The notes under the pieces were generated by a model. The model was given only the letters and a program-made list of their open reading frames with translations, searched no databases and was not told the DNA's origin. From assembly GCA_000004985.1 (NCBI GenBank), contig GG738867.1: DNA of 64,000 nt; one strand, 5' to 3'. This document shows, one piece after another, positions 21,554 through 56,086 of the stretch. Numbering within the stretch: the first letter of the stretch is position 1; each line of letters starts with the position of its first letter. The position numbers and the translations under genes are program-made. This DNA is from Naegleria gruberi (Eukaryota).

Positions 21554-21647
21554 TAAAGAATAAGTAGAATTTATGAAAGAAAACCAATAGTGTGCATTTT
21601 GTAAAGTGTTCAGCCTTACTGTTCAGCACTATCTTTTCCAAAAAAAA

Positions 21648-22193
21648 ATGTCCAACGATCAATTTTTTGATGAGGATGAAATTTTGCAAAGTCTCTTTAC
21701 CAAATATCATGAAATAACATCATCATATGGAAATGGAACACTCTATCTCGGAAATCAGAGTAGTGTTGGTGCCTTTCCCGATAAATGGAATTATTCCGAG
21801 AAGGATTACCAACAAGTATTGTTAGAATTACAATCACTGAATATAAAATCAATTGTTTGTTGTGCTGATGGCTTGGCAATATTTCCTAATGAATTTGAAT
21901 ATTATCAAGTTGATGCAAGGGATTCTCCATCTTTTGATTATTTACCTATAATTGATGGAGCAGTTGAATTCATTAAAAGAAAACTCAATGAGGGATCTTC
22001 TGTGATCGTTCATTGCAATGCTGGAGTTTCCAGGAGTGCTACAATTGTGGTTGCATTCCTGATGAAAGTAGCCAAAATACCACTAGAGCAGGCTATTAGA
22101 ATGGTTAGGGAGAAGAGGAAATGTATTGATATCTCAAATTTCAAATCTCAATTAGTTCAATATGAAAATCAATTAAAGTTACTTGGAATGTAA
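21648..22193 (+). CDS. Dual-specificity protein phosphatase (DUSP family)
   Basis: Active-site signature VHCNAGVSRSAT (HCxxGxxRS), a typical DUSP fold length, and an upstream Asp-containing general-acid region (DARDSPS). ATG at 21648 within the 21606..22193 ORF. Confidence 0.85.
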   Translation: MSNDQFFDEDEILQSLFTKYHEITSSYGNGTLYLGNQSSVGAFPDKWNYSEKDYQQVLLELQSLNIKSIVCCADGLAIFPNEFEYYQVDARDSPSFDYLPIIDGAVEFIKRKLNEGSSVIVHCNAGVSRSATIVVAFLMKVAKIPLEQAIRMVREKRKCIDISNFKSQLVQYENQLKLLGM

Positions 22194-22361
22194 TGATCTA
22201 TTATCTCAAAGCAAGATGATTATCTTCCATTGCTAAAATTTTGAACAACTTATCGAGATGTTGAATTTCATGGTTCATGTGTATTTACAACAAGATGAAA
22301 GGGTGACACGGATTTTTGATTGTTTTATGGTGTTGGAAGAATTATCCAACAAGACAAAAAA

Positions 22362-24833
22362 ATGGAACTTAAAGATGGTTACTTTCCTTCTTCCAATGGT
22401 TCCGATTTTACATCATTAGCAAAGTTGCAACGTTTTTCACCCATTTCTGTCTCATTCAATGTATTAATTTGCTTTGATTCAAAATATGAGACCGAAGTGA
22501 GTGTAAAGAAACATCAACTATCCGATGAAACAAATTTACTGGTAAGTATTAATCCACACCAAAATAATTTATTATTGATTGACTAATTTATTATTATATT
22601 ATTGAAAATAGGTAGAAACTCTTTCATCCAATCACCATTTAAAAAATTGTGAATATTTACTGCCAATCTATGAGTGCATTCCAGATGATGTTGATTCATA
22701 TTTTACTATTTCTCCCTATTGTAAAGAAGGTGATCTAGAAGAATGGATTCGTAGGAATGAATTTTCTCTGCAAAAACCCATTCCTCCCGAAACTATTCTT
22801 CTCATCCTCTATCAGGTTGGCATTGGTATTGATACGCTCCACCACTCAAATATTATTCACAGAGATTTGAAATTGAAAAACATTTTCGTTAGGGAGTATG
22901 ATCCAAACACAGGATATATCAAAATAATGATTGGAGACTTTGGTGATGCCAAACAAATGGAAAAGAGTTACTATGAATCGTCTGGTACCAAAACTTTTAA
23001 TGATTCACCTCCAGAAATAATAGACCAATGGAAGCAAAACAAGAAGGATGTTAAGTGGACAAAGAAAGCCGACTTATGGGGCATTGGTTGTGTGTTGTTT
23101 AGGTTATTGACATTTGATTTGGTATGTTGAGAATAGTTGTTTCATTAACACAGAAAAGACTTCTCCACTTCATGATATTATTTTCGATGATGCTAATGAC
23201 AATTGGATTGTAAATCTTTGTAACAGATTTGTATGTAGTTTTAATAATCAATTATTTCAAAATAATCATTGACAAGTAGCAACTCGATGACTTGTTTGTG
23301 AAATTACTATACTACACCTTACAACCAATCTACTCACAGAGAGGAGGATCTGCTAGTTTTTTGGAAAGGGTATTATTGGTTTTAACCCAAAAAGGTTGTC
23401 ATATACGTGATGAAAAAAGTGGGCTGATTAATGGTATTAGCAAAGCATTTAACGAAAATACAACTGAATTGATAAAGCAACAAACTCTCGATATTAGCAC
23501 TTTCATGGGAATGAGAGAGGACTATTTGAGAAAATTGGCAATATCAATCATAGACAATGATTTGGAAATATTAGAAGAAGTTCCTCATGCATTGGAAAAA
23601 GGAGATTCTTTTTACCAACAGAAACTAATTATTATGCTTACTACTAATGATTTGAAAGATGAGAAAGGGATGGAAGATATTTTTGAAAAATCAATTCAAT
23701 TATTTCCAAAATGTATTTATCTATCCAAATTATCATGTTCCCTTTTCTTCATGCTTGAAAAATATGAAAAATCATTATTATATATTGAGAAAGTAACATG
23801 TAATTCTGTTTTTAAACTAAATTATGAAGACTGGATTACCTGCTATGACATGAAATCAAATATTTATGCTATTCAGGAAAAATGGGATGAAGCATTATCG
23901 ATTGCAGAATTTATTCTTTTGGAATTGGCAGTTAGGAAAAGTAATTGTATTCCAAAGCACGTTATTGCTTTAAATAGAGCTGAATTGTATTTTAATAAGA
24001 AAGATTATGACCAATGTATTGAATCATGTACATTTGTAATTGACACATTTGAGAACCTTCATTCTGTAGAGGATGAGAAAAATGCCCACCTTGTAGCATA
24101 TACTTTGGCTGCTAAAGCATATGGAGAAAAAGGAGATCAGTATAATTGCTTTAGATTCATCCAGGTAGCTCATTCTACTAATGAAAGAGACTGCACAATT
24201 CTAATTATCAGAGCACAGTTATATATCAAGTTCAATCAGATTGAGTCTGCACTCGATAGTATTTTGAAAGCAATATCTATACAACCTCAAACAAGGGAAT
24301 ACTACGAGCTTGCTTTAACTGTGTTTAAAATGTGCAAAAATGTAAACATGACCACTTTATGTTCTGAACTGATTACCAAATTGGATAATAGAAAAGAGAT
24401 TACCAACTCAGACCTGAGTTTATTACTTAAATTAGAAACAAAATCTACTATTGAAACCATCAAACAAGATTCCTCTCATAATACTGTTTCACCTCTAAAT
24501 GCTATTGTAAAAACCAAAATCACTTTGAGCACTCTACGTGGAACCACTGTTAAGGTGGAATGCACTGACATTGAAGGTATCATCAAAGAATGCAGACATA
24601 AATTATTGAACGATAAGTTGGAAATAATTGTAAACATGAAAGAAAAGACTAGAATTGACTATATCGAAGATTTGGACCCCTCAATTAATTACACAATTTT
24701 AACAGTTGAAGAATTCAAGGATTTAGACGCGAAACAACCTCCTTCCAACACAAATTCAATCCTATTATCCTCCATGGCAGCTCTTTCTTTCCTTGCTGCC
24801 GCAACCTCCTATTTATTCATTGTAAGGAAATAA
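22362..24833 (+). CDS. Protein kinase with C-terminal TPR/Sel1-like repeat domain and C-terminal TM anchor (cluster copy A); exons 22362..22541, 22612..23121, 23340..24833
   Basis: GTAAGT donor at 22542 and GTATGT donor at 23122, with TAG/CAG acceptors in frame. The middle exon carries kinase subdomains IV-IX (YLLPIYEC...YCKEGDLEEWI...IIHRDLKLKNIF...IGDFGDAK...DLWGIGCVLFRLL). Exon 1 lacks a canonical GxGxxG loop. The C-terminal 500 aa is helical-repeat rich and ends with a hydrophobic helix (MAALSFLAAATSYLFIV). Confidence 0.6.
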
Positions 24834-24839
24834 AAAAAA

Positions 24840-27075
24840 ATGTCATTGCTCCTCTCGTCATATTCTCGCTTCCAAAATGTTGAGATGATTGGTGCTGGGT
24901 CTGGTGGGACTGTTTTCCGTGCTTTTGATCAAGAAATTGGAAAACAAGTGGCCATCAAAGTGACTAAAAGTATTCAAGAAATGAAAATTGTAAGTAAATT
25001 CTTGTTACATTGTAATCAATGGACAATAATTTAATATATTATATTAATAGTATAATTATATTAAAACAAACAATATTCAAAATAATTACCTGGTTGAAAT
25101 TTATGATCATTTACAGAGTGGTGACGATGACTCTATTATTGTGATGGAGTATTTTCGAGAGGGAAATTTAGAAAATTGGTTGAAACAAAGAAAGAAACCT
25201 CTCAGTTGGCTCTTAATTTATAGTATCCTATTGCAATTAACATTCGGAATACACTACTTGCATTCCAATAAGATTTTTCATAGAGATTTAAAGTTGAGTA
25301 ATATTTTGGTGGTGGAGGAGGTTTGTGAACACATGGTGAGAGTAAAGATTGCAGATTTGGGATTATCGAAAATAGTGGATCATGATACAATCAAGCACTC
25401 CAAGGTTGGAACTCACTATTATCTTCCACCAGAAGTCAGACAACAAACCACTGAAGAAATTATACCAGAGAAAATTGATATTTGGAGTTTTGGAATTCTG
25501 GTTTTCAGATTATTGTCCAGAGATTTTACGTATGATGTGGCCAGCAAGTTGGTCAATAGTAAGGAGAAGGATTTTTGTGAGGATGTACTGATGAAGATGA
25601 TTCAGAATAATGAAAATGTTGATTGTGGGGTTGTGACTAATTTTGTAACATTTCTCACACCAACACTCAAATTGAAACCAAGCGAAAGGTATAATTCACT
25701 GGATTTATTCGATTTATGTTTCAATATTCCAAATAATGAGTCGTATGTCGATCAAGATACTATTGACCTACTTGTTGATTGTAGAGTTGATCCTTTGATA
25801 ATTGGAATTTGTTACTTTTCTCTCAAACAGACAGAAAAATCAATTCACTATCTCGAAAAAGTATTAGAGAACAAAACAGAAAATAACAATAGTGCAGAGA
25901 AGGGCTTTGCATGTGCAATCATGGCCTTTATAACACTGTTCAATGGTAAAAACAGAACCATTGTTAATTCAGAGAAAGAATACAAAGTCAATCCTGACTT
26001 TTTGAGATATATTGAATATGTGGAGAAATATTCAATTACTTTCAAGCTGTATCATTTGTTAAAATCAAAGCAATATTTTATGAGCCAGCATTATGAAAAA
26101 TCTATAGAACATGCAGACCAATGTATAGAACATATTGGCTCTGCCTCTAGTTTGAAAGCTTGTTGCTTGCATGGTTTAGGTTATTATGATAAAGCACTTG
26201 AGGTTATGAAGAAAATCAACCCAAAAACTGAAATGGATTACAGAAACATGTCATATATTTATTTGGTTGAATATCAAAATTATGAGGAGGCTTTAAAGTG
26301 TGCAAATAGTGCACTAGAACTCAATCCAGGAGTTCCTGATTTTTATTTACTGAAAGTATGCTGCCTCGCAAGTGCTGCTCCAAGTGAGGCTCTTACTTGT
26401 TTGAAGAATGCTCGAAAATTAATTGGAAAAGTAGGTGTATATTACTATCACAAGGGGAGAATCTATTTGAATATGGGGAGATTGGAAATGGCTCTTTCTA
26501 AATTAAATAAGGCCCAAGAATTAGGTGAGGAGAGTATGAATTTGATTGCAGTTTTGGAAATGGCATTGGGTAGATTACCTGAAGCTCTTATTTCAATCAA
26601 TAGATATTTAGAAAAGTATCCAAATAATATTACAGCCCATAACAACAAGTTCAAGATATTAATCATGCAAAATTTGACAGAGGAGGCGAAAATTGAGCTA
26701 GAATTAATTGAACATCTCAAACGTCTCAACATCAAAACTGAAAAAACCATCAAACAACAATTGTATTTTGAAAATGACAAACCTCCCATCTCAAACATCT
26801 CAAACACGAATATTAAGGAGTGTTATTTTGTTTCCAAAAACCATACCTTCAAAAGAAAGATTAAATTTAACTCTGTGGAAGATCTTTTGAAGCAATGCAG
26901 AAAAGAATTTCAAGACGAAACAATCACCACTTTTATTGACGAAAATTCACAAGTATGTGATTTAAAATTTGGAACTTTTATACATGGAAAAACCTATACT
27001 GTTACTGGTGATTTGTATATGGAACAAACTTCATATATGAGCTCGCTAATGAATTATCTTTTCCAAAAACGGTAA
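24840..27075 (+). CDS. Protein kinase with C-terminal TPR/Sel1-like repeats (cluster copy B, apparently intact); exons 24840..24989 and 25117..27075
   Basis: Exon 1 has a Gly-loop and VAIK (IGAGSGGTVFRA..KQVAIKV). GTAAGT donor at 24990 and CAG acceptor at 25116. Exon 2 has HRDLKLSNIL, DLG (IADLGLSK), a YYLPPEV activation segment and DIWSFGILVFRLL. About 400 aa of TPR-like helical repeats follow. Confidence 0.8.
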
Positions 27076-28973
27076 ACAACAAAGGCCAAAATTGAAATAG
27101 TGCCTACTATTACATATGGGCTTATTGAACTCGATTCAGCTACTACACTGTATGTTTCATCTTCAATAATTTCATCAAATGCTTGGCATTTGGTTGCTCC
27201 TAAATGAATGGAAATAATTTTACGTTTGAATAACTTGCTGGCTTTCTCCATTAAATTTTCCATAGAATCTGAACGAATACAATGAATATAAGGGTGTCCC
27301 TCTAATCTCAGCTTTACATCCTTTTCAATAAACTTTCCTACAACGGTTTCTCTGTTGGCATTCTTATCCATTTGTTGAATATTATTGGAAGCCTCCACTA
27401 TATTACCCATTTCAAGTAGAATATTACTTCTTATTTCATTACTAAATTTGCAAGTGGGAATTTTCTGAAGATGATTATTGATTGATGAAAGAGCTTGGTC
27501 ATATCTTTTCAATTTTTGATAACATTGAGCTAGTAGTAAATCAATTTTGTTTTGAGGTATCTTAACCATCAAGAATTCCTCCAAAGCTTGCTCATAACTA
27601 CCAATAGCTCTATAAGTTTTTCCTTTCAAATAGTGGCATCTTGATTTGTCAAATTCTCTTTCAGATTCCTTCAGTACAGTATCGTAAATATCCAAAGCTT
27701 CTCCAAATCTTTTCAAGTGAGCGAGTGTCTTCCCCTTCCCCAATAAAATATTAAAATAATTTTTGTGAATTCTTAAATTGTAATTATCCAATGCAAAATT
27801 AAAATCTTCAAGTGCATTTGCAAATTCTCGAGTCTTATACCTACACTGTCCTCTATTGATATATACAGTATCTTCATCCAATCCATCACGAATAATAGAA
27901 TTGATATCTAATATTGCTTCAGAATATTGCTTACTCATTGCCTTGTAGGAACTCAATAGTATTCTTGGTCTCCTTTCACAAGGCTTTAATTGTGTAACTC
28001 TCTTGAGATATGCTAATACCTTTGCTGTGAATCCAGAATTGACAACTTGAATTTGACCACTAAGGAAATATACCAAATACCCTCCATTTTTCAAGTGTAT
28101 GTCTATTAATCGAATAATATCAGGTTCAAAACTTGATGCCAATTGTTCTGCGTCTATTTCTGGATTTTCAGCTGCATTGAAAACTTTGAAAAGCATTGAA
28201 TATAAAATCATTAAATCAAATATATCACCCTCTCCCAAAAACATTCTCAATTCTCTATTATTGATTACATTGTAAAATATCAAATCTTCTCTACCAACAG
28301 GAATTGAAACGTTCTCTCCACTCTCTGGGTGCAAGAATGCAATAACATTTAATTGTCTACAAATATCCTCAAAAAGTATAGAACTATTCACTCTCAAAGA
28401 TGGTTCAGGTTGAAGAGTTCCTTGTAAAATAATAATGAAAAAATTATCTTGTAGAGGTGTCAGCTTTTCTCTAATGATTTTCAACCATAATCTTTCATCC
28501 TCATCAATAGGAATAAAATTGGTTGACTGTATAATGAAAAGGTTATACACAAATTGATCCAACTATTGAAAACCTACCAATTTCAATAATTTCATGAGTA
28601 TTAAACCGACACACCACACGTCAACCTTCATCAATTGCATCTCTCTAGTCTCCTCATCATTCGTCATATGTAAGAGACCCTCCACTTCCTTTGGCTTGAT
28701 TTGTGAAAATTCTTCAATGGCCAACAAATGACTTTTAATATTTTCTCTCTCGTCCAAAGTGTCAAATTCTAACGAATCAATCAAAGGAATTCCTTCCTCC
28801 TTTTTAATAATTAATTTTAACAAATTCAAGTGTGCCTTTCCAACATTATGATGGTATTTATGTAAAAATAGAATTAATTTATAAATTAAATGGATGATGG
28901 TGATAGGATCATGATTGTTCTCTTTGGCAGTGTTGATAAATTCCTCCAATGTAAATCTTTTCATTTTTTTCAA
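27054..28973 (-). pseudogene. Decayed paralogue of the kinase-TPR family (cluster copy C): only C-lobe kinase remnant, in-frame TAG, TPR-like repeats retained
   Basis: Two adjacent same-frame ORFs (28973..28563 and 28562..27054) are separated by a single TAG codon. The upstream part contains only kinase subdomains V-IX with a degenerate catalytic loop (HNVGKAHLNLLKLII instead of HRDLKxxN). There is no N-lobe and no room for one, because the next gene ends at 29030. The downstream ORF is a TPR-like repeat region paralogous to copy B and has its own C-terminal hydrophobic helix. The 3' end overlaps copy B by about 22 nt (convergent). Confidence 0.5.
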
Positions 28974-29029
28974 TAAAACAATTTCGCATAGAAATATTAG
29001 ATTGCAAGGTTTTCTTCATATTGTAAAGT

Positions 29030-31204
29030 TTATTTCTCTGATTCAAGGAAGGAATTGATGATATCAGTAAACTGAGAAGGAAATTCTCGTCTCTTTGCAA
29101 GTAATTCCAATGTTTCAGGTATTATTTTCTCATGCAATAAATCTAGACTTGGTCCATTAGAAGATTTCACTGTAAAGCACAATTTGGCATTGTATCCTTT
29201 TTCATTAATACATTGTCCAAACAATTGTCGTAATTGGTAGAAATACGTATAATCACAATCCATAAAAGTCATTGAAACTCTGTCAATAATAAATATGGTT
29301 TGCAATCTCTTTTCAGTTATTTCAATAATTTTGCTTTCTTTTCTAGTACCATCGATAGTGATTGAAACTTTGATTTTCTTTCCTGGTCTTTGTAACAATT
29401 CAATAAGTGACTTATTAGACATTTCTTCATAATCTTTGATAAATATTGAGCAAGCACCGAACCAATTCTTAATGGCCTCTTGTTGTATTTCAGGATGTGA
29501 TGTAAGGATATCCATATTAATCCATCTTATAGCCTTTGGTGCATATTTTACAATCTCTAAAGCATAATCCTTATTGCTAGATATAAACTTTGACACTTTT
29601 TGGAGACTTGTAAAAGGATCTTTTTTAAGAATTGCGATAATAATGTCCATTGAGTGTATGTACTCTTTAGGAATTGTGCTAATATTGTCTCCTCCTTTGA
29701 TGGAAGCAAGAACCATTTCTTTATCAATCTCAATACTACTATCAATTTCTGAAATGCTGAAACCTCTCCTCAAACAGTCTAAAATCAGCTCTCTATCGAT
29801 TCCAATGATATCCTTATATTCCTTTTTAAAAAGATACTTGAGAATGGATGGATTGACTCTTAGAGCCTCTTTAAGGAATTCCTTATCATGTCTCAATGAC
29901 TCATCCAATATCTTGAATAATTTTCTTTCCTGACGGCAATATTTCAACAGCCCTCTATTCTTCAAGAATTCACTGTCAACTTTGAGAGAAATATTCTTGG
30001 ATATGAATTCAGTGTCTATGGTAGTACTAACTTCTATTAACTTGCAGAATAAGTCGAAACTATTGAAAAAGCGATCATCCAAACATGCACAAATATCATC
30101 ACTTTCTACATCATGGCACAGGTACGATATGTCATAATCACGGGTTGTGCACGCCTTTACAATTTCCCAAGGCACAAATCCTATTTTTCCCTCAGCTTCT
30201 CCTTGATCCCAAGGGTAATCTGTATACTTTGAATTGGAAACCTTCGCTTTTTTTAATCCAATAATGTCAATGAGATTGCATGCTACTAAATATTCATCAT
30301 CAAATCCCAAATATCCCACCATTTGTTGTAATTGCAACACTAAAATTCCCTTATCACCTGGAACAAGGGAAACCCAATAATCACTTCTATAATTACAATT
30401 TTCAAAACTTGGATATGATAAACCTCCATAAAAAGAGCATAACAATTCCTTCTCCTTCCTTTGGAAACGGATAATATTTCCATTATTAGAAACTAGGAGA
30501 AATCTATTTGAGGATGTTGTGATTTTACACAGCTTCATATTGTCCATCTCAATAAACTCTACACAATTTGATATCTTTTCTCTGGTAATTTGAATTTCCT
30601 TTACCTCCTCATCTTGTTCATCTTTATCATCTTGGTCATTTTCTTCATCCTCTCCTTCATCTTCTTGATCATCTTCTTCATCTTCCTCTTCCTCTTCATC
30701 TTCTTCTTCTTCATCGTCATGTTCCTCTTCGTTTTGCTCTGTTTCATCATCTCCATCATTTTCATCTTTCCCTTGCTCATCTGTGACCATCATTGCATTC
30801 ACTTCCTCATCCATTTTCAATACCTTCAACAATCTTAACCAATATGCCAATGAATGATATTCATTCTCTGGATTACACTCTACAGACCAAGTCCATGTCA
30901 ATTTTCCTGAACAAATCTTGTTATTCCATAGAGTATCAACCCACTCCTTCAGCAAAAGTATGATCTTCTCACGGGAAAAGTACAAATCGTGCCAATCTTT
31001 ACACACCACAGCAAGTGATGGCAAATCCTTTGGTGAACAAAACTTGAATATATGACCCAATACAAATGGATCATATCGACAAACGAGAATATTTAGAGGT
31101 TTCTCCAATAATTGATTGGATTTTTGCTTTTTTGATGATGACAACGAGAGAGAGTTATCTTCCGAAGAGGTTCGCTTCATTTGGTGTTGGGAATTAGTAG
31201 ACAA
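29030..31204 (-). CDS. F-box-like / poly-acidic / SH3-like / DUF4116-repeat protein
   Basis: 724-aa ATG ORF. N-terminal F-box-like motif (LNILVCRYDPFVLGHIFKFCSPKDLPSLAVVCKDWHDLY). About 70-residue D/E run. SH3-like segment (...GDKGILVLQLQQ...GKIGFVPWEIVKA). C-terminal tandem approx 30-aa repeats of DUF4116 type (DKEFLKEALRVNPSILKYL / DKEMVLASIKGGDNISTIP / DYALEIVKYAPKAIRWI). Confidence 0.6.
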   Translation of the reverse strand: MSTNSQHQMKRTSSEDNSLSLSSSKKQKSNQLLEKPLNILVCRYDPFVLGHIFKFCSPKDLPSLAVVCKDWHDLYFSREKIILLLKEWVDTLWNNKICSGKLTWTWSVECNPENEYHSLAYWLRLLKVLKMDEEVNAMMVTDEQGKDENDGDDETEQNEEEHDDEEEEDEEEEEDEEDDQEDEGEDEENDQDDKDEQDEEVKEIQITREKISNCVEFIEMDNMKLCKITTSSNRFLLVSNNGNIIRFQRKEKELLCSFYGGLSYPSFENCNYRSDYWVSLVPGDKGILVLQLQQMVGYLGFDDEYLVACNLIDIIGLKKAKVSNSKYTDYPWDQGEAEGKIGFVPWEIVKACTTRDYDISYLCHDVESDDICACLDDRFFNSFDLFCKLIEVSTTIDTEFISKNISLKVDSEFLKNRGLLKYCRQERKLFKILDESLRHDKEFLKEALRVNPSILKYLFKKEYKDIIGIDRELILDCLRRGFSISEIDSSIEIDKEMVLASIKGGDNISTIPKEYIHSMDIIIAILKKDPFTSLQKVSKFISSNKDYALEIVKYAPKAIRWINMDILTSHPEIQQEAIKNWFGACSIFIKDYEEMSNKSLIELLQRPGKKIKVSITIDGTRKESKIIEITEKRLQTIFIIDRVSMTFMDCDYTYFYQLRQLFGQCINEKGYNAKLCFTVKSSNGPSLDLLHEKIIPETLELLAKRREFPSQFTDIINSFLESEK

Positions 31205-46601: not shown

Positions 46602-49600
46602 TTATAAAATTTCCTTTCTTTGAGCATTGGGTGGTTCTCTAATTCTGGCAATTTTGATGAATTGCTCGACAGTCATGGTGCTTCCATAGAGTGCAGAGGC
46701 TTCTCGTTGTTGCTTTTGGATCATCATTTGGATTTGGAAAACTGGTTGGATGGCAAAGTCAACTCGACACTTTTCCAATCTGTTCATGGCTGTGGCAAGT
46801 TCTTCAAATTTGGCCCATCGAATCATGTTATTGTGATGTTTCACATAGGTTTCAGTTGAGTAAAAGTAGCTCAATTCTTCCTGTTGTAAAAAATCCATAA
46901 AATGATTCTGAATATACATGAGCTCTCTCAAGTGAGCTTCAACAATTGGAAGACAAGGAGTTCTGCATCCATCAAATAGGTCATTATAATTCTGATATCG
47001 AGAATCTTCAACAACTACTACATCGATATGATAATTGGATGGATCAAATCCGAAAAAGATGTCATATTTGGATTTGAAATGAATGAGGGATGGAGTTGGC
47101 ATGTGAGAGAAGGAAGAATCTTTTGATTTGGCAGTATGGTGATCCTCATAAAAGACTACGAGTGGATTAGTTTCCACTTCTTCAGCTTCATTGTCATCCT
47201 CTGAGGCAATTTGTTGCTGTTTGATTGAGTTGTTGACACTTGTTGGAATTACTCTGACAGTGCTTATTGATTCCTTTCTTCTGACAATATTTGGAGATGG
47301 AAGGGAACTTTCTACATTGACAGAAGTGGAACTATTGATAGAGAATGAGTCGAATGAGCCTGATTTTCTCATTTCTTGAACAATGGTATGGCTGTGTTTT
47401 GGGTGACCGAGATTTCTCACAATACTCTTGAAACTAAAGTTGGCATTTCCTTTGAATTTCTTTTTGGATTCATCGACAGTATGGTAGAGATTTTCCTTAA
47501 TGGCTGGATGTGAAAAGATGGTAGCAAGTGCATGGGCAGCACCATAGTTTTGCATATTGTACAATTCAATAATGATTTGCTTAATCTTGATGATCAATTC
47601 AACACGATCCTTGATGTGTGGTTTATCCAAGACATCACACATAAGCCAATTAGCTCTATCGTGGATCAACTCGAGATATTGACACAATTTAGGACAATTC
47701 ATCTTGAAATATTGAGATCTAAAATTGGAAATGGCCATATTGAAATCCAAGTAGCCATACGTCTTTTTACAATTCTTTACAGAGAGAATGGAATAATTCA
47801 AAAATTCAACACTCGAAATTTCACTATAAAAGTAATAATCCATAATAGTGAATTGTCTAGATAATTCTACAGGTGACACATCTGACCATTTGAGAGAGGA
47901 TGAAAAGACATTTGGAGGAATGTTTGGTCTTGGACATTTTGACGAGTCCATGTAAATGGTTTTGTAAAAGTGATAATATTCGTCAGTGTTGGTATTATCA
48001 TCATCAAGATTTTCATCGGTATCAATTGAAGTTTCCAAGGCATTCCTCTTTCCTCTTCTATTGTTGCCATTAGTGAAGATTACATCAGAATCTGATTCAG
48101 ATAAATGGGACGAGAAGAAATTAGACAACTTATCAGAGAATGACTCTGTGTCGGTCTTTTCAATTTCCAGCGAAGTGAATTGGGTATATTCCTTAATGCT
48201 GACCTTCTTTCTCAGATTCTTCTTACCTAAAATTGTTGCCATTTTCTTTTTCAATGTTGTATTGATAGTTTCACATAATTCGAGTGCATTTCCAACTTTT
48301 GATAGAGTCACAACCGAGTCTGGAATCTTGCTTGACTCAACCTTTTTCAATAAGTGTAGGGATTTTATCTGTTCGATAATCTTTGAGAGAAATTCGAACA
48401 TGTTTTGATTCCATTGATAGTAATATTCCGATAGCCAATAGCTCAACACATCGAGACAACAAATAATAATTTCAATACACTCTACAGTTTCCAAAAGTTT
48501 TGACATTGTGTTGGTAATTCTATCAACGTGTTCACCGACTGATTCTTCAAGAATATTATCATTAGTGACATCAGTAGAGGAAAAGACTCCCTTACTATCT
48601 AATCCGAAATTTTTCATGATCAAGATGAGTGGAAGACTCAACCTTTCGAATATTTTCAATAGGAGACCATCTGGAGACAGAATGTGAACATATCCCCTGA
48701 AGAATGCCTTTCTAAAAGTGTCCTTTGTTTCGATTCTTGTCTCAGGACGTACACAATTCTCTCCAAATACTTCGAAATAATCATTAGCAACAGTATCGTA
48801 TTCTCTGAAACGAATCTTACTCATAGTATCGAATAGTCTGTGCTCAGTGACTGTAACCATTTCAATGAGTTTGTTCAAAGTCAATCCAAATAAGACGTTG
48901 TGATTCTTATCGTCGTCTTTGAATGTATAAAAATTGGAGAATGAGTCAAATAATTCATGATGTTCTCCAGTGCTTTGATTCTTCCTCTCTATGAATAGTT
49001 TTCGTTGTTTGATATCATTTGAGGTCAGAGTTTCGAATGCAATCTTGGGAATGTTTGAGAACTCCTCCCAATAGGAAGGTTTCAGAGAGAGCTTGTTAGA
49101 TTGAGAACGAAGGAGGAATTTTTGGAAGAAATTTTGAGTTACTGTTTTCGAAGGAATGAAAGTGTTTCTTCTGATGGTACTTTCTCTCACTCTCGATTTG
49201 GCAGGCGAGAGAGGAGAATTTTTGCTCGATAAAGTGCTAGCTCTTCCATGAATGGAACGAAGCTTTTCCAATGTTTCGGCAGCTGTTGGTCTTCCAATAG
49301 GATTAGGATCCAATAATTTACAAATCAATTCGGCCAATTCAGTTCCATTAGTTACACATTCCATAACTTGTTGTCTGAGTTGGGCATGGAAATTCACATT
49401 CTGATACACCTCAATGTAAAATTGTCTATTCAAGACTTGGAACAAGAGTTCATAAAATACACAACCAAGAGACCACATATCTGTCGAATATCCATATGGT
49501 TCCTGGGACATCATTTCTGGTGAGCAATATTTAACAGTACCCAGAAGAGTTTGTTCAGAGCTAAAGCTTTGTGGAACAAGAAGCTGGTCAGTGTGAATAC

Positions 49601-50426
49601 TGCCATTATTCCTATTGAAAAAATTACCTCTTTCCTTTTCCAATTCTACTGCTTCTTCACTGGTGGAGAATTTCATCTTTTTCATAGTTTCAAAATCTCC
49701 AATCTTGATCGACTTTTCATCATTGGTAACAAAAATGTTACTCGGCTTTAAATCCAAATGTACAAATCCCTCGGAATGCAAATACTTGACACCCTCTGCA
49801 ATTTGAATCATGTAACTCAATAATTGATCTCTCGAAATGACTTCAAATATTGAATTGACATGACAATTATTCGTACTTTCGTATTGTTTAGTTTTCTTCT
49901 TCAAATAGGTATCCAAATCACCATGTTTAAAGTATTCCATTTGAAAGCAAATCCAATAACTTTGTTTCTTATCAACAAGCTGACTCAAATTCTCAACTTG
50001 CATCTTGATAGATGATGATGAATCGGAAGAAATTGAACCTGCTTCAGCAATTTCATTCTCATCCTCATCGTCATCTTCACTTCCAACAAGTAATTTGGAT
50101 TTTTCACTAGCTTCATTCTTTGTATTGGCAACAAACTGATTACCATTCACATTCCCAGTACCAGTACCAACACTATTTCCTCCTCCACCTCCTCCCAAAT
50201 TAGAATTACTATTCGAATTATTTGTATTCATAATATTTGCAAACTTTTCAAAAAAGATATCTTCAATTTCTACAAGATTTGGCGACTTTAAATGTCTCAA
50301 TTTCCATCCCTCAGATATAAATCTGTTCAACTCATCCTCCGAGTAGCATTGTGTCTTTTTGAGAACTTTTGTAATGTGCTCTCGGGTGACAATGACGAGA
50401 ACCATTTGTTGATTATTCTTCATCAT
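46602..50426 (-). CDS. Protein kinase - RasGEF (CDC25-homology) fusion protein; the 5' end possibly extends upstream
   Basis: 1274-aa ORF. Kinase C-lobe motifs YLHSEGFVHLDLKPSNIF, IGDFETMK, GTVKYCSPE and DMWSLGCVFYELL. Gly/Asn-rich insert. RasGEF N-terminal-like region and a CDC25 catalytic domain (..NMQNYGAAHALATIFSHPAIKENLYHTVDE.. / ..PCLPIVEAHLRELMYIQNHFMDF). The reading frame stays open for about 70 codons upstream of the first Met without another ATG. Confidence 0.65.
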   Translation of the reverse strand: MMKNNQQMVLVIVTREHITKVLKKTQCYSEDELNRFISEGWKLRHLKSPNLVEIEDIFFEKFANIMNTNNSNSNSNLGGGGGGNSVGTGTGNVNGNQFVANTKNEASEKSKLLVGSEDDDEDENEIAEAGSISSDSSSSIKMQVENLSQLVDKKQSYWICFQMEYFKHGDLDTYLKKKTKQYESTNNCHVNSIFEVISRDQLLSYMIQIAEGVKYLHSEGFVHLDLKPSNIFVTNDEKSIKIGDFETMKKMKFSTSEEAVELEKERGNFFNRNNGSIHTDQLLVPQSFSSEQTLLGTVKYCSPEMMSQEPYGYSTDMWSLGCVFYELLFQVLNRQFYIEVYQNVNFHAQLRQQVMECVTNGTELAELICKLLDPNPIGRPTAAETLEKLRSIHGRASTLSSKNSPLSPAKSRVRESTIRRNTFIPSKTVTQNFFQKFLLRSQSNKLSLKPSYWEEFSNIPKIAFETLTSNDIKQRKLFIERKNQSTGEHHELFDSFSNFYTFKDDDKNHNVLFGLTLNKLIEMVTVTEHRLFDTMSKIRFREYDTVANDYFEVFGENCVRPETRIETKDTFRKAFFRGYVHILSPDGLLLKIFERLSLPLILIMKNFGLDSKGVFSSTDVTNDNILEESVGEHVDRITNTMSKLLETVECIEIIICCLDVLSYWLSEYYYQWNQNMFEFLSKIIEQIKSLHLLKKVESSKIPDSVVTLSKVGNALELCETINTTLKKKMATILGKKNLRKKVSIKEYTQFTSLEIEKTDTESFSDKLSNFFSSHLSESDSDVIFTNGNNRRGKRNALETSIDTDENLDDDNTNTDEYYHFYKTIYMDSSKCPRPNIPPNVFSSSLKWSDVSPVELSRQFTIMDYYFYSEISSVEFLNYSILSVKNCKKTYGYLDFNMAISNFRSQYFKMNCPKLCQYLELIHDRANWLMCDVLDKPHIKDRVELIIKIKQIIIELYNMQNYGAAHALATIFSHPAIKENLYHTVDESKKKFKGNANFSFKSIVRNLGHPKHSHTIVQEMRKSGSFDSFSINSSTSVNVESSLPSPNIVRRKESISTVRVIPTSVNNSIKQQQIASEDDNEAEEVETNPLVVFYEDHHTAKSKDSSFSHMPTPSLIHFKSKYDIFFGFDPSNYHIDVVVVEDSRYQNYNDLFDGCRTPCLPIVEAHLRELMYIQNHFMDFLQQEELSYFYSTETYVKHHNNMIRWAKFEELATAMNRLEKCRVDFAIQPVFQIQMMIQKQQREASALYGSTMTVEQFIKIARIREPPNAQRKEIL

Positions 50427-52394: not shown

Positions 52395-55300
52395 ATGTCA
52401 TCATCACACTCATTCACTCTAATCTTTCTAACTATTGCTGTTATATTGCTAACTTTAAATGGGCACTATTCGATATTTGCCTTTGATCTTACTTTTCCAA
52501 CATTTCCTGATGCCAAGTTTCGATCGGATACTTCCAATGCCACTGAAGTGTTTATTAAAGACTCAATTGACCAAATTGCTAAACAACTCGAGCCACCATC
52601 TTTAGCTCTTCCATATTATATTGATGGACCAATAGCACTATTCGCAGAAGTGGTTGGAGTTCTCTCAAATAGTGACACGTACAGTAAACCTTACGTAAAA
52701 CCACCAGATGTTATTTCGAATAGTACACACGAAATGTTGAACATAATGATGACCAAAGTATTGAACCGAGTAGAAACTGCCCTGTTAGAAACCAAATATG
52801 ATAAGCTTGTTATTGCTCTCGTTATTGAACTCGATAAGGATCTTGAAGTTGCTGATTGTAACATTTCGCCAATCATTCCAATAGAAATATCAAAAAAACT
52901 TGCTGACATTACTGTCTATTTGACAATTAATGGTCATTCCTTGAATATGAAATGTGGTGGAGATTATTTATTCTCTAGTGGTCCAGATTCCAATTGGAAC
53001 ATTGTTATTAACAGAGCAGTACTTTCGAATATATATTTTACTGGAAATTATGTTTTCAAAAAGGTTGAATTTTTGGCTCAATGTGAAATATCAGCTTCTA
53101 GTTTTTTAGTATTCATCAAATCCAAGACTCTTCACACACTATATATTCCCTACATTAGTGCTATTAAGGAATTGATATTTATTGATAGTGTTATGGATAA
53201 ATTAAGAGTGGATTTCATTCAAGAGTTTCATCTATTTTTGGCAAGTAATAGTTTGATTGGTTTAGGAATGTTCGATTGTGAAATTAAGAATGTTTGGCTG
53301 TATAATTCAAAGGTTTATCTAGAAGACAGGTTTATTATTGAAAGTTCTGATCAATTCATATTATTTAACTCAACTATTCAATCAAAGAACTCTCCAATAC
53401 AGATGAGAATAGAATATTCGAAACTTATTTTCATAGATGGCTTTAAAAATTCTCATACTCCAATCATGCTCTCACTTTCACATTCCATTTCTGTTGTAAT
53501 GAAAAACATATTACTCAATTCTGCCACTTTACAACAAGAATCACTTCTTAATTTTCGAGGAATCAAATCATTATCCATCTATTCCTCCATATTTAAAGAA
53601 AACAATGCAAATAGAATTATAGACATTAGTGATTCAAGTGAGGTTGACATTAAAGAGATTTTATTTGAGGAGAATTCTGCTACTGATAGTCCAATTTGCA
53701 TTTCTCCTGGTGGAGCTAAGAGCTCACATACCCGTATTGTGGACAGTGTTTTTAATAGGAATAAGGCGGGAAATAAGGCAGTGATTGCATTGTCTCATCC
53801 AATTATATTGGCCCGATCTGTTTTTAATGAAAATGAGGGAGTTAGTGGAGGTTTGTATATTTTGATTTAAATTGGTGGTTGACCATGTTTAGGAGCTATT
53901 TATGTTGAAGCTGGATTTACTATTTCTGGGTCCACTTTCAAGAAGAACAAGGCCAAGAATGGAGGAGCTCTGTATATTCACTCAGAAATTGGTGCTTCAG
54001 GTACCATGCAAAATGTTGATTTTGTGGAAAATCAAGTAACAGATCTAGATGATGTTAAAGTGTGTGGTCAAGATAGTTGTGATGGAAGTGGAGGTGCTAT
54101 TTATTATAACCAAAACGACCTTTTCTCAATAATGTCATGCAATTTTGTCAAGAATTTGGCTGTCAGAGGAGGTGCCATCTTTGCAAATTTTGAAAATGAT
54201 ACCATTTTTATTACTTATTCGAAATTCAAAGAAAATTATGCAAGTTATGGAGGAGGTGCAATCTATTCTAATTCTGCCTCATATCTTCCATTAATTTATG
54301 AAGAATTGGGAAGTGGAAATAAGGCTAAAGTATTTGGAGATTATGTTGCTTCTTCCATTGCTAGTGTGAATTGGAGAGTTCAAATTGAGGATCAAAAAGA
54401 TAGATTATATGAAGGAAATCAAACTATTTCAGTATATCCAGGTCAATTATTTACCATTATTCCCTATTTTACTGACCTTTACAATAATTCTTTTGTAATG
54501 AATAAGGAAGTTTCAAAAATCAAAGTTTCAGGATCAAATTTCACAATTAGTCAATCATCAGAAAAGGAATTTACTAATCTATTCATTGCATCAACCGGTC
54601 CACTTCCAAATTCTGAACATTTACACATGACAACACTTACCATTTCATTTTACAAAACCGAAACCAATCTAAAAGTCCAACTTCTCCCCTGTCCAAAGAA
54701 TTTCTATTTGAAAGATAATCAATTTAGTAAGAATCTTGTCTGTGTCTATGAAGAATCCAGAGAATATCTGATTGCTGTAGCTGTTTCAGTAACCATTGTG
54801 GTCATTACCCTTCTCCTATGCTCAATAGGTGTCATTTCCATGCTCTGCTACAAGATATCCCACAAGGTAAAGTATTGGATGCGTAGAGATAAGGCAGAAA
54901 AGGAAATTGAAAAGCGATTACTCGAATCTGATCTATGTCCAGAAGAGGAATTGCTCAGTGTTCGAAATTTGAATTTTGTGATTAGTATTGATCAGATTAC
55001 ATTGGAAAGAAAGATTGGAGAAGGTGGTTCTGGAATTGTTTATTTGGGAAAATGGCATCACCATCCAGTTGCTGTCAAATGTCTTAAACTTCAAGATGCT
55101 TATCAAAATTCAGATGAAATTGAAAAGGAAGCAGCTCTATTATGCAAACTTAGACATCCCAATATTGTATTATTCTTTGGTGTTTCATTAACTCCACAGA
55201 AACAATATCTCATTGTGGAATATTTGGAGAAGGGAAGTTTGGAGAAACATATTTCATTAATGAAACGAAACCATCAATTCGAATTTGTTGACAAGTTGAA

Positions 55301-56086
55301 GCTTTTGATTGATATCACATGTGGAATGGCATATCTTCATTCCCTTAAAGTTATTCATAGGTATGTGAAATATTTAAACTATTTATTCCTAATATTCGAA
55401 ACAGAGATTTGAAACCTGGAAATATTCTATTAGATTCTGTTGGAGTAGCCAAAGTTTGTGATTTTGGCATTTCTAGAATTGCTGGAAACACTGCAGCAAA
55501 CTCCACAACCATCTGTGCTGGAACTTTAACCTACATGGCTCCTGAACTATTGCAATCAGATGCCGAAAAGAATCGAATTACAACCTCAGTCGATGTTTAC
55601 AGTTTCTCAATTATCATGTATGAAATATTCTTTGAGGAAGCTCCCTATGCAAAATCTTTGAAAATCAAACAATTTAAACAGGAAAGAAATGGAAAAATTC
55701 ATAATTCTCATTCAGAAGATGGTTTTTATAATAATCATCATCTTGTAACTCCATTTTCAGTTATTTCCAAAGTGATTAAGGGAGTGAGACCTGAAATTCC
55801 ATTCGAAAATCCACAAGATATTGCTGAATGGCTTCAATTATACATGTTTGAATATGGATTACTTTCCGATATTTGTAAATCAAAGGCAATTTCTATTGTA
55901 AATGATTATGTGGAATTGATGAAAGCTTGTTGGAGTGCAGAGCCAGATCAGAGACCAAACTTTGAAACTGTTCTCAATTGTCTTTCATTGTTGAGACAGC
56001 AATTTATGGACTTGACAGATTATCATAAACAGATATCTGGTTCTCTATCCTCTACATCAACAACTACTACAACTGCCTATGACTAA
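52395..56086 (+). CDS. Receptor-like TKL-family protein kinase with large GGAIY-repeat (Pmp-like / parallel beta-helix) ectodomain; exons 52395..53850, 53893..55360, 55405..56086
   Basis: Signal peptide (LIFLTIAVILLTLNG). Approx 800-aa ectodomain containing recurrent GGA[IL]Y/GGGAIY units (GGAIYYNQND, GGAIFANFEN, GGGAIYSNSA, GGALYIHSE). Single TM (LIAVAVSVTIVVITLLLCSIGVISMLCY). The cytoplasmic kinase has IGEGGSGIVYLG, AVK, HRDLKPGNILL and DFG. GTTTGT donor at 53851 with TAG acceptor at 53892, and GTATGT donor at 55361 with CAG acceptor at 55404. Confidence 0.7.

What the first reader, a model, noticed from the sequence alone, without database searches (positions are those of the whole stretch)
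22320..28973. Tandem cluster of three kinase + TPR/Sel1-like repeat genes with one decaying copy
Three consecutive genes (A plus, B plus, C minus) share the architecture protein kinase followed by approx 400-500 aa of TPR-like helical repeats. A and C end in a hydrophobic helix. B looks intact (GxGxxG, VAIK, HRD, DxG). A has a degenerate N-lobe. C retains only the kinase C-lobe with a degenerate catalytic loop and an in-frame TAG. C is 5'-truncated against the neighbouring gene and overlaps the 3' end of B. This looks like birth-and-death evolution of a lineage-expanded signalling family.
Basis: seen in the sequence. Interest (0 to 1): 0.55.

Follow-up and report, generated by a model that had tools for sequence, protein, structure and literature searches.

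The report
Naegleria kinase–TPR gene trio
Three neighbouring, very old and very divergent Naegleria gruberi genes encode a kinase (or kinase remnant), TPR repeats and a small ubiquitin-like domain; the "decaying" copy looks intact, because its apparent stop codon lies in an ordinary intron.

Summary
The window is Naegleria gruberi nuclear DNA, with short GT..AG introns. There are three adjacent genes. A is on the + strand (4 exons, 771 aa), B on the + strand (2 exons, 724 aa) and C on the − strand (2 exons, 619 aa).

- B has every catalytic motif but no hydrophobic tail.
- A lacks the glycine-rich loop but keeps Lys, HRD and DFG, and has a tail anchor.
- C starts at helix αD. It keeps only non-catalytic C-lobe motifs and has a tail anchor.

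The "in-frame TAG" in C lies inside a canonical 51-nt intron. The public gene model already removes that intron, and it is base-for-base identical in an independent metagenome contig. C has an open 619-codon frame and gene-like codon usage, yet only 19–23% identity to A and B. It is therefore an anciently diverged, maintained paralogue, not a decaying pseudogene.

No relatives were found outside N. gruberi-like DNA, and no further family members were seen.

Function is inferred only: a membrane-anchored kinase/pseudokinase scaffold set. The finding is ordinary to mildly interesting.

The parts
22362..24833 (+). Gene A, 771 aa. Exons are 22362-22541, 22612-23121, 23159-23230 and 23280-24833. 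Introns are 70 nt (GTAAGT..ATAG), 37 nt (GTATGT..AAAG) and 49 nt (GTATGT..GTAG). Not present in the public protein sets.
   Evidence: Searches give the model. The Pfam Pkinase match (8e-26) is continuous across the exon 1/2 junction, and TPR_1/TPR_2 also hit. Codon score is positive in every exon. No Naegleria hit was found for A.
22461..23387 (+). Kinase domain of A. It has no Gly-rich loop. It keeps VSVKK (22497-22511), HRDLKLKN (22858-22881), DFG (22936-22944) and DLWGIG (23071-23088).
24510..24731 (+). Beta-grasp (ubiquitin-like, CIDE-N-like) domain of A.
24759..24824 (+). C-terminal hydrophobic helix (tail anchor) of A, followed by VRK and the stop.
   Evidence: Kyte-Doolittle 19-residue mean is 1.68.
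24840..27075 (+). Gene B, 724 aa. Exons are 24840-24989 and 25051-27075, with a 61-nt intron (GTAAGT..ATAG). The public model P0001 (580 aa) starts at an internal Met and lacks the N-lobe.
   Evidence: Searches give the model. Pfam Pkinase (4e-42) is continuous over residues 12–266 across the junction, and TPR_2 hits at 4e-18. B is 100% identical to P0001 from N. gruberi.
24873..25698 (+). Kinase domain of B with a full catalytic motif set: GAGSGG (24891-24908), VAIK (24948-24959), HRDLKLSN (25279-25302), DLG (25354-25362) and DIWSFG (25477-25494).
   Evidence: The nearest solved kinases are eukaryotic (STK24/MST, PAK, MAP3K12, PLK4) at E about 1e-20.
26815..27009 (+). Beta-grasp domain of B.
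   Evidence: Local alignment to the C domain gives z 5.6 (0 of 2000 shuffles reach it). Alignment to the A domain gives z 3.3.
27022..27072 (+). Tail of B (EQTSYMSSLMNYLFQKR). It is not hydrophobic and looks like a shortened remnant of the anchor seen in A and C.
   Evidence: Kyte-Doolittle mean is −0.04. Alignment.
27054..28964 (-). Gene C, 619 aa. Exons are 28964-28578 and 28526-27054. The public model P0121 (442 aa) uses the same 51-nt intron, but starts at an internal Met and splices a further 118-nt 3' intron.
   Evidence: ORF-open probabilities are and codon score.
28527..28577 (-). The 51-nt intron of C (GTAGGT…ATACAG). It contains the 'in-frame' TAG at 28560-28562.
   Evidence: The splice junction is identical in P0121. 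The intron is 51/51 identical in metagenome contig L001, and P0137 from that contig ends at the same TAG.
28356..28964 (-). Kinase C-lobe remnant of C (aa 1–186). It starts at αD, has a degenerate catalytic loop GKAHLNLLK (28815-28841), has no DFG, and retains DVWCVG (28605-28622) and the subdomain-XI Arg.
27354..28046 (-). TPR repeat region of C.
   Evidence: Pfam TPR_1 at 2e-13, TPR_2 at 2e-11 and TPR_12 at 2e-10. All distant database hits fall in query residues about 300–515.
27138..27317 (-). Beta-grasp domain of C. The public model's 118-nt intron (27200-27317) would remove it.
   Evidence: The frame stays open for about 87 codons through and beyond that putative intron, with chance about 4e-4 using the per-codon stop rate.
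27072..27116 (-). C-terminal hydrophobic helix (tail anchor) of C, followed by RFWKR and the stop.
   Evidence: Kyte-Doolittle mean is 1.89.
27054..27075 (.). 22-nt tail-to-tail overlap of the B and C coding sequences. YLFQKR-stop (B) and YRFWKR-stop (C) are read from opposite strands of the same DNA, which is 14/22 self-complementary.

Best explanation
This is a cluster of three anciently diverged paralogous genes of Naegleria gruberi. All three appear intact once short introns are removed. Each encodes one colinear architecture: a protein-kinase domain, then TPR repeats, then a small beta-grasp domain, then a C-terminal tail.

The copies have specialised rather than decayed.
- B keeps a complete catalytic kinase but has lost the hydrophobic anchor.
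- A keeps the catalytic Lys, HRD and DFG and the tail anchor, but has no glycine-rich loop. It is therefore an atypical kinase or a pseudokinase.
- C has lost the whole N-lobe and the catalytic residues. It keeps the structural C-lobe core, the TPR repeats, the beta-grasp domain and the tail anchor.

Shown here: the gene structures, the motifs, the paralogy, the open reading frames and the intronic position of the TAG.

Inferred only: A and C are tail-anchored and cytosol-facing. They act as TPR docking scaffolds, and the beta-grasp and/or TPR modules let them associate with each other and with the soluble active kinase B. Catalysis and membrane anchoring would then be split between paralogues.
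For: - Organism and splicing habit.
- Gene models with canonical GT..AG introns, and Pfam kinase alignments that run continuously across exon junctions.
- Paralogy links: A–B E 1e-20, B–C E 1e-4 and 6e-5, A–C E 6e-4. The tail domain gives z 5.6 for B–C and 3.3 for A–B.
- C-lobe homology of C from a kinase HMM built without A or B.
- Motif table.
- ORF-open probabilities of 1e-19 to 1e-25 for the long exons, with 37–66 stops in each off-frame.
- Codon-usage score of every A, B and C exon within the range of 17 other genes.
- The TAG and its intron are identical in an independent 98.4%-identical contig, and both indels between the two strains fall in the intergenic spacer.
- pN/pS is 0.3–0.4 in C. 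This points towards constraint but is not significant.
- Hydropathy of the tails.
- Beta-grasp model and CIDE-N/ubiquitin-like matches.
Against: - No transcript or protein evidence could be consulted.
- No orthologue was found in any other species, so constraint cannot be measured across species.
- The two-strain comparison has only 8 substitutions in C and cannot reject neutrality (p 0.12–0.19).
- C exon 1, the kinase remnant, carries more substitutions than the flanking coding DNA (7/387 against 2/614, p 0.03). This fits relaxed constraint on that part.
- Pfam does not recognise a kinase domain in C.
- The full-length AF2 model of C was unusable (pLDDT 46).
- The beta-grasp model rests on a 3-sequence alignment, and only one of five models was confident.
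- The public model of C uses a different 3' end that lacks the beta-grasp domain and anchor.
- The functional scheme (anchoring, hetero-association) is entirely inferred.
Confidence: 0.7

Rival explanations
1. One reading: C is a decaying, non-functional copy (a pseudogene). It was truncated at the 5' end and interrupted by a stop codon, and is a product of birth-and-death turnover.
For: - C lacks the N-lobe and all catalytic residues.
- Pfam sees no kinase domain in it.
- No orthologues were found.
- Substitution density is higher in exon 1 than in flanking coding DNA.
Against: - The stop lies in a canonical intron that the public model also removes.
- There is no other stop or frameshift in 619 codons, although C is only about 20% identical to its paralogues.
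- The TPR consensus is still strong, with TPR_1 at 2e-13.
- Codon usage is gene-like.
- The tail anchor and the terminal Y-x-F-x-K-R motif are retained.
- Indels between the two strains occur only in the spacer.
Confidence: 0.1
2. C is a functional TPR protein, but its kinase-like first exon is largely untranslated leader. Translation would start at the internal Met used by the public model (MQLMKVDVW…), and the protein might also lack the beta-grasp domain and anchor because of the 118-nt 3' intron.
For: - The public model P0121 has exactly this structure.
- Both of its splice sites (GTAAAG…TTTAG) look plausible.
- Exon 1 evolves faster than its surroundings.
Against: - The 108 codons upstream of that Met are open in both strains and start with an ATG.
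- They are colinear with αD–αF of A and B.
- Their codon score is 0.26, against −0.97 and −0.61 in the other frames.
- The region removed by the 118-nt intron, and the region downstream of it, stay in frame and are homologous to the B domain (z 5.6).
- The downstream region ends with the same tail motif as A and B.
- The public models of this cluster are demonstrably incomplete: B lacks its N-lobe and A is absent.
Confidence: 0.15
3. The kinase–TPR architecture was acquired from bacteria, where Ser/Thr kinase plus C-terminal TPR is very common. The three genes would then be copies of a horizontally transferred gene.
For: The best non-self database hits of B are bacterial or metagenomic kinase–TPR proteins, with E 4e-26 to 1e-13 and up to about 80% coverage at 20–24% identity.
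Against: - The genes have spliceosomal introns and host-like composition and codon usage.
- The nearest solved kinase domains are eukaryotic (STE20/MST, PAK, MAP3K, PLK4), and no bacterial PknB-type chain is in the top 60.
- Similarity to the bacterial proteins is generic kinase plus generic TPR at 20–30% identity.
- The beta-grasp domain and tail have no bacterial counterpart among the hits.
Confidence: 0.05

Closest known systems
Plant BSK (brassinosteroid-signalling kinase) family: membrane-attached kinase or pseudokinase with C-terminal TPR (background from my own knowledge; BSK1 is discussed in PMC11019013)
   Same: The order is kinase domain followed by C-terminal TPR repeats. The protein is membrane-attached and faces the cytosol. 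Several members have degenerate catalytic motifs and act as scaffolds.
   Different: BSKs attach through N-terminal myristoylation, not a C-terminal tail anchor. They have no beta-grasp domain. No specific sequence affinity was seen: no BSK chain is among the top 60 solved kinase matches. A and B start MELKDG and MSLLLS, so they have no MG myristoylation motif.
Bacterial Ser/Thr kinases with C-terminal TPR (PknG-like and the many STK–TPR proteins; survey in bioRxiv 10.1101/2025.01.12.632604)
   Same: The domain order is kinase then TPR. These are the best non-self database hits of B.
   Different: Identity is only 20–30% and generic. A, B and C have introns, a eukaryote-like kinase domain, a beta-grasp domain and a tail anchor.
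BUB1/BUBR1 (MadBub) paralogue pairs: TPR plus kinase, with one copy degenerating into a pseudokinase (bioRxiv 10.1101/733378; PMC13385977)
   Same: Duplication of a TPR-containing kinase is followed by loss of catalysis in one copy, which is kept for a scaffolding role.
   Different: In BUB1/BUBR1 the TPR is N-terminal and the pseudokinase keeps both lobes. There is no sequence relationship to the present genes. In C the whole N-lobe is gone.
CIDE-N domains (DFF40/DFF45, CIDE-A/B/C, Drosophila DREPs), which assemble head-to-tail into filaments (PMC6292858, PMC7156525)

Membership tests
Eukaryotic protein kinase superfamily (Pfam PF00069) | Profile match above the Pfam gathering score | tested here: met
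   A scores 91.4 bits and B scores 144.7 bits against a cut-off of 31.7. This holds for A and B only.
Eukaryotic protein kinase superfamily (Pfam PF00069) | The same profile match for gene C | tested here: not met
Catalytically competent kinase | Gly-rich loop, β3 Lys, HRD Asp, catalytic-loop Asn and DFG Asp are all present | tested here: inconclusive
   B has all of them: GAGSGG, VAIK, HRDLKLSN and DLG. A lacks the Gly-rich loop but has the rest. C has none. Activity itself cannot be tested with these tools.
Pseudokinase (kinase fold without catalytic residues) | Recognisable bilobal kinase fold with substituted catalytic residues | tested here: not met
   C begins at αD and its N-lobe is absent, with only 65 nt to the upstream gene. 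It is a C-lobe remnant, not a complete pseudokinase domain. The AF2 model was too poor to examine the fold.
TPR repeat proteins | Pfam TPR family matches above the gathering score | tested here: met
   A has TPR_1 at 28.5 bits (cut-off 27.8). B has TPR_2 at 64.4 bits (cut-off 27). C has TPR_1 at 50 bits (cut-off 27.8).
Tail-anchored membrane proteins | A single hydrophobic helix within about 30 residues of the C-terminus and no other transmembrane segment | tested here: met
   A residues 748–769 score KD 1.68, and C residues about 597–614 score KD 1.89. In each protein this is the most hydrophobic 19-residue window. B does not meet the feature (−0.04). Membrane insertion cannot be tested here.
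CIDE-N domain (Pfam PF02017) | Sequence-profile membership | tested here: not met
   No Pfam hit at E ≤ 10 for the three domains. No CIDE chain appears in the PDB profile search.
CIDE-N domain (Pfam PF02017) | Beta-grasp fold closest to solved CIDE-N structures | tested here: inconclusive
Plant BSK kinases | N-terminal myristoylation motif (MG…) and specific sequence affinity of the kinase domain | tested here: not met
   The N-termini are MELKDG (A) and MSLLLS (B). No BSK chain is among the top 60 solved kinase matches.
Pseudogene (decaying copy) | In-frame stops or frameshifts in exons, and loss of coding signature | tested here: not met
   The only stop is intronic. The exons are open, with chance 1e-5 and 1e-19. 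The codon score is gene-like.

The most novel reading that the evidence does not exclude
A, B and C form one hetero-oligomeric signalling machine in which the functions are split between paralogues. The soluble, catalytically complete B would be recruited to an organelle or ER membrane by the tail-anchored, catalytically impaired A and C. Recruitment would go through head-to-tail assembly of their CIDE-N-like beta-grasp domains. That would also place a CIDE-N-type polymerising module outside animals.
Probability: 0.12. Interest if true: 0.5.

Novelty: new variant of a known kind. Interest (0 to 1): 0.22.

Why it matters
The main value is corrective. The apparent premature stop is an intron, so this is not a case of gene decay.

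The public N. gruberi models of this locus are incomplete:
- B lacks its N-lobe.
- C lacks its kinase remnant and probably its true C-terminus.
- A is missing altogether.

Biologically, it is a small example of how a kinase–TPR gene can diversify after duplication. The result is an active soluble copy, an anchored copy without a Gly-rich loop, and an anchored copy that keeps only the C-lobe. The domain combination kinase, TPR, beta-grasp and tail anchor matched no named family in the searches run here. It bears on no long-standing open question.

Tried and rejected
- Orthologue searches. Word-based searches with B, C and A found only the N. gruberi self-hits for B and C, nothing for A, and generic kinase/TPR proteins.
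- The exhaustive phmmer search with C found only itself, a 97%-identical exon-1 fragment and generic TPR hits.
- Two JGI metagenome scans with C and B found nothing.
- Exact-product look-ups for P0001, the B exon-1 ORF and the C exon-2 ORF found nothing.
- AF2 of full-length C with a 3-sequence alignment gave pLDDT 46 and was not used.
- The afdb50 fold library was unavailable.
- Pfam at E ≤ 10 and a PDB profile search gave no family for the post-TPR domain or for C's N-terminus.
- Sequencing error at the TAG was rejected, because the independent contig is identical there.
- Hidden N-lobe exons for C were rejected. The upstream gene is one continuous 724-codon ORF ending 65 nt before C's ATG, and the only other minus-strand ORF there (28909–29100) is not kinase-like.
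- Recent tandem duplication was rejected, because identities are only 19–33%.
- The dN/dS test has too few substitutions to decide.
- Two literature searches for a described Naegleria kinase–TPR family found none.
Full report
WHAT THE WINDOW IS

The window has 31–36% G+C throughout. Gene B is 100% identical to a "predicted protein [Naegleria gruberi]" (P0001), and so is gene C (P0121). The sequence is therefore N. gruberi nuclear DNA. The genome is compact and has short GT..AG introns.

GENE MODELS

I read the sequence directly and translated all three frames. From this I built spliced models.
- A is on the + strand. Its exons are 22362–22541, 22612–23121, 23159–23230 and 23280–24833, giving 771 aa. 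Its introns are 70, 37 and 49 nt, with donors GTAAGT, GTATGT and GTATGT.
- B is on the + strand. Its exons are 24840–24989 and 25051–27075, giving 724 aa. Its intron is 61 nt (GTAAGT..ATAG).
- C is on the − strand. Its exons are 28964–28578 and 28526–27054, giving 619 aa. Its intron is 51 nt (GTAGGT..ATACAG).

Three results support these models.
- The Pfam Pkinase alignments run without a break across the A exon 1/2 junction and the B exon 1/2 junction.
- Every exon has a positive codon-usage score in the chosen frame (0.19–0.32 bits/codon). The other two frames are strongly negative. Seventeen other long ORFs of the window score 0.12–0.49.
- The public model P0121 uses exactly my C intron junction, …LLKL|STNF….

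THE "IN-FRAME TAG"

The TAG at 28560–28562 lies inside the 51-nt intron of C. Because 51 is a multiple of three, the frame appears to run straight through it.

An independent ENA metagenome contig (L001, 1123 bp) is 98.4% identical to 29364–28248. It carries the whole intron unchanged, 51 of 51 bases. The gene caller's product on that contig (P0137) ends at the same TAG. The TAG is therefore neither a sequencing error nor a coding lesion.

ARCHITECTURE AND MOTIFS

Pfam finds Pkinase in A (8e-26) and in B (4e-42). It finds several TPR families in all three. It finds no kinase domain in C (at E ≤ 10).

Alignment of the three proteins and alignment to a kinase HMM with PKA as reference give the following.
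- B has GAGSGG, VAIK, HRDLKLSN, DLG, PPE and DIWSFG, which is a complete catalytic set.
- A has no glycine-rich loop. It keeps VSVKK, HRDLKLKN, DFG, PPE and DLWGIG.
- C starts at the position of helix αD (…LEEFI… aligns with …LEEWI…). It has KAHLNLLK where HRDLKxxN should be and has no DFG. It keeps DVWCVG and the subdomain-XI Arg.

The C-lobe homology of C rests on three results.
- Pairwise BLAST gives E 1e-4 against B and 6e-4 against A, and the alignments are colinear.
- C's ATG lies 65 nt below the stop of the upstream F-box/DUF4116 gene, so there is no room for N-lobe exons.

- AF2 of the A copy with a 3-sequence alignment gives a ββαβββα beta-grasp at pLDDT 83. Only one of the five models was confident.
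- Foldseek gives only generic beta-grasp matches at E about 1e-2.
- There is no sequence-level link to any family.
- The domain is homologous among the paralogues. B–C gives z 5.6 with 0 of 2000 shuffles reaching it, and A–B gives z 3.3. A–C is not significant.

A and C end in a hydrophobic helix a few residues from the stop, with Kyte-Doolittle means of 1.68 and 1.89. B's tail is not hydrophobic (−0.04) and looks like a shortened remnant.

IS C DECAYING?

I conclude it is not, for these reasons.
- C is only 19% identical to B and 23% identical to A overall, so the duplication is ancient.
- C's exons are nevertheless open for 129 and 490 codons. The chance of this at local composition is about 1e-5 and 1e-19, and the other frames hold 13–54 stops.
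- The TPR consensus is well preserved.
- Codon usage is gene-like.
- The tail anchor and the terminal Y-x-F-x-K-R motif are retained.
- Between the two available strains, the two indels fall in the intergenic spacer.
- pN/pS in C is 0.3–0.4. With only 8 substitutions this is not significant.

One observation points towards relaxed constraint. Exon 1, the kinase remnant, carries 7 substitutions in 387 nt, against 2 in 614 nt of flanking coding DNA (p 0.03).

On balance C is a maintained gene whose kinase part has been reduced to a C-lobe remnant. It is not a pseudogene.

FAMILY SIZE AND RELATIVES

- tblastn of A, B and C against the window finds only the three genes themselves. It also gives weak generic kinase matches to two unrelated kinase genes.
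- Protein searches with B, C and A find no other Naegleria protein. Beyond that they find only generic bacterial and metagenomic kinase–TPR or TPR proteins.
- The exhaustive HMMER search with C finds nothing beyond TPR matches to query residues 300–515.
- The metagenome scans were empty.

"Lineage-expanded family" is therefore not supported. As far as these tools can see, the family is this trio. No eukaryotic genome collection could be searched at the DNA level.

The kinase domain of B is closest to eukaryotic STE20/MST, PAK, MAP3K and PLK4 kinases. A bacterial origin of the kinase–TPR arrangement is therefore unlikely.

PUBLIC ANNOTATION

- P0001 (B) starts at an internal Met and lacks the N-lobe.
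- P0121 (C) starts at an internal Met. It also splices a 118-nt 3' intron (27200–27317, GTAAAG..TTTAG) that shifts the frame and removes the beta-grasp domain and anchor. I prefer the unspliced reading. The frame stays open for about 87 further codons, and that stretch is homologous to B's domain and tail.
- A is absent from the protein collections.

HOW IT PROBABLY WORKS

This part is inferred. Tail anchors would place A and C on a membrane facing the cytosol. TPR repeats are protein-docking modules. Beta-grasp domains of the CIDE-N/PB1 type mediate homo- and heterotypic assembly (PMC6292858, PMC7156525).

The complementary pattern suggests subfunctionalisation. B has an intact kinase but no anchor. 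A and C have an anchor but an impaired kinase (A) or only a C-lobe remnant (C). This would give an anchored scaffold plus a recruitable catalytic subunit. Nothing here tests that idea.

COMPARISON WITH KNOWN SYSTEMS

The nearest analogues are:
- plant BSKs, which are membrane-attached kinase or pseudokinase proteins with C-terminal TPR;
- bacterial STK–TPR and PknG-like proteins;
- BUB1/BUBR1-type duplication followed by kinase degeneration in one copy.

None is a sequence relative. The combination with a beta-grasp domain and a tail anchor, and a copy reduced to the C-lobe alone, make this a variant of a known kind.

VERDICT

The key inference of a decaying copy with an in-frame stop is wrong. 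The locus is an ordinary, if tidy, example of an old lineage-specific paralogue cluster. Interest is low.

Noticed in passing
window 24822-24884: A's stop (24831-33) and B's ATG (24840) are only 6 nt apart on the same strand, so their transcripts must overlap or share regulatory sequence. A GTAAGG…TTGAG segment of 63 nt would, if spliced, fuse A in frame to B (…SYLFI|MIGAGSGG…). This is probably chance, because B has its own complete kinase start.
   Followed up: partly
window 27054-27075: The last six codons and the stop of B (YLFQKR*) and of C (YRFWKR*) are encoded on opposite strands of the same 22 nt. That stretch is 14/22 self-complementary. The similar tails of the two proteins are therefore mechanically coupled.
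   Followed up: partly
window 24840-27075 and 27054-28964; gene A 22362-24833: The public N. gruberi gene models are incomplete here. P0001 (B) lacks the N-lobe. P0121 (C) lacks the kinase remnant and uses a frame-shifting 118-nt 3' intron (27200-27317). Gene A has no counterpart in the protein collections.
   Followed up: partly
window 21606-22193 (+): A dual-specificity phosphatase gene (Pfam DSPc, 3e-27) lies directly upstream of A on the same strand. The phosphatase and the kinase trio therefore sit side by side.
   Followed up: no
L001 (ENA ERZ929261 contig, 1123 bp), matching window 29364-28248: This is an environmental N. gruberi-like strain, 98.4% identical. It has a 7-bp insertion and a 1-bp deletion, both in the spacer between the F-box gene and C. 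Substitutions are concentrated in C exon 1 (7 of 387 nt).
   Followed up: yes
window 29030-31204 (−): The neighbouring gene encodes an F-box plus DUF4116 protein with a long Asp/Glu-rich run. It ends 65 nt before C's ATG.
   Followed up: no
window 46602-50426 (−) and 54006-56086 (+): There are two further, unrelated kinase genes. One has kinase plus RasGEF (1274 aa). The other has Chlamydia-PMP-type repeats followed by the N-terminal half of a kinase domain, which apparently continues in the overlapping ORF 55409-56086. That suggests an intron or frame change there.
   Followed up: no
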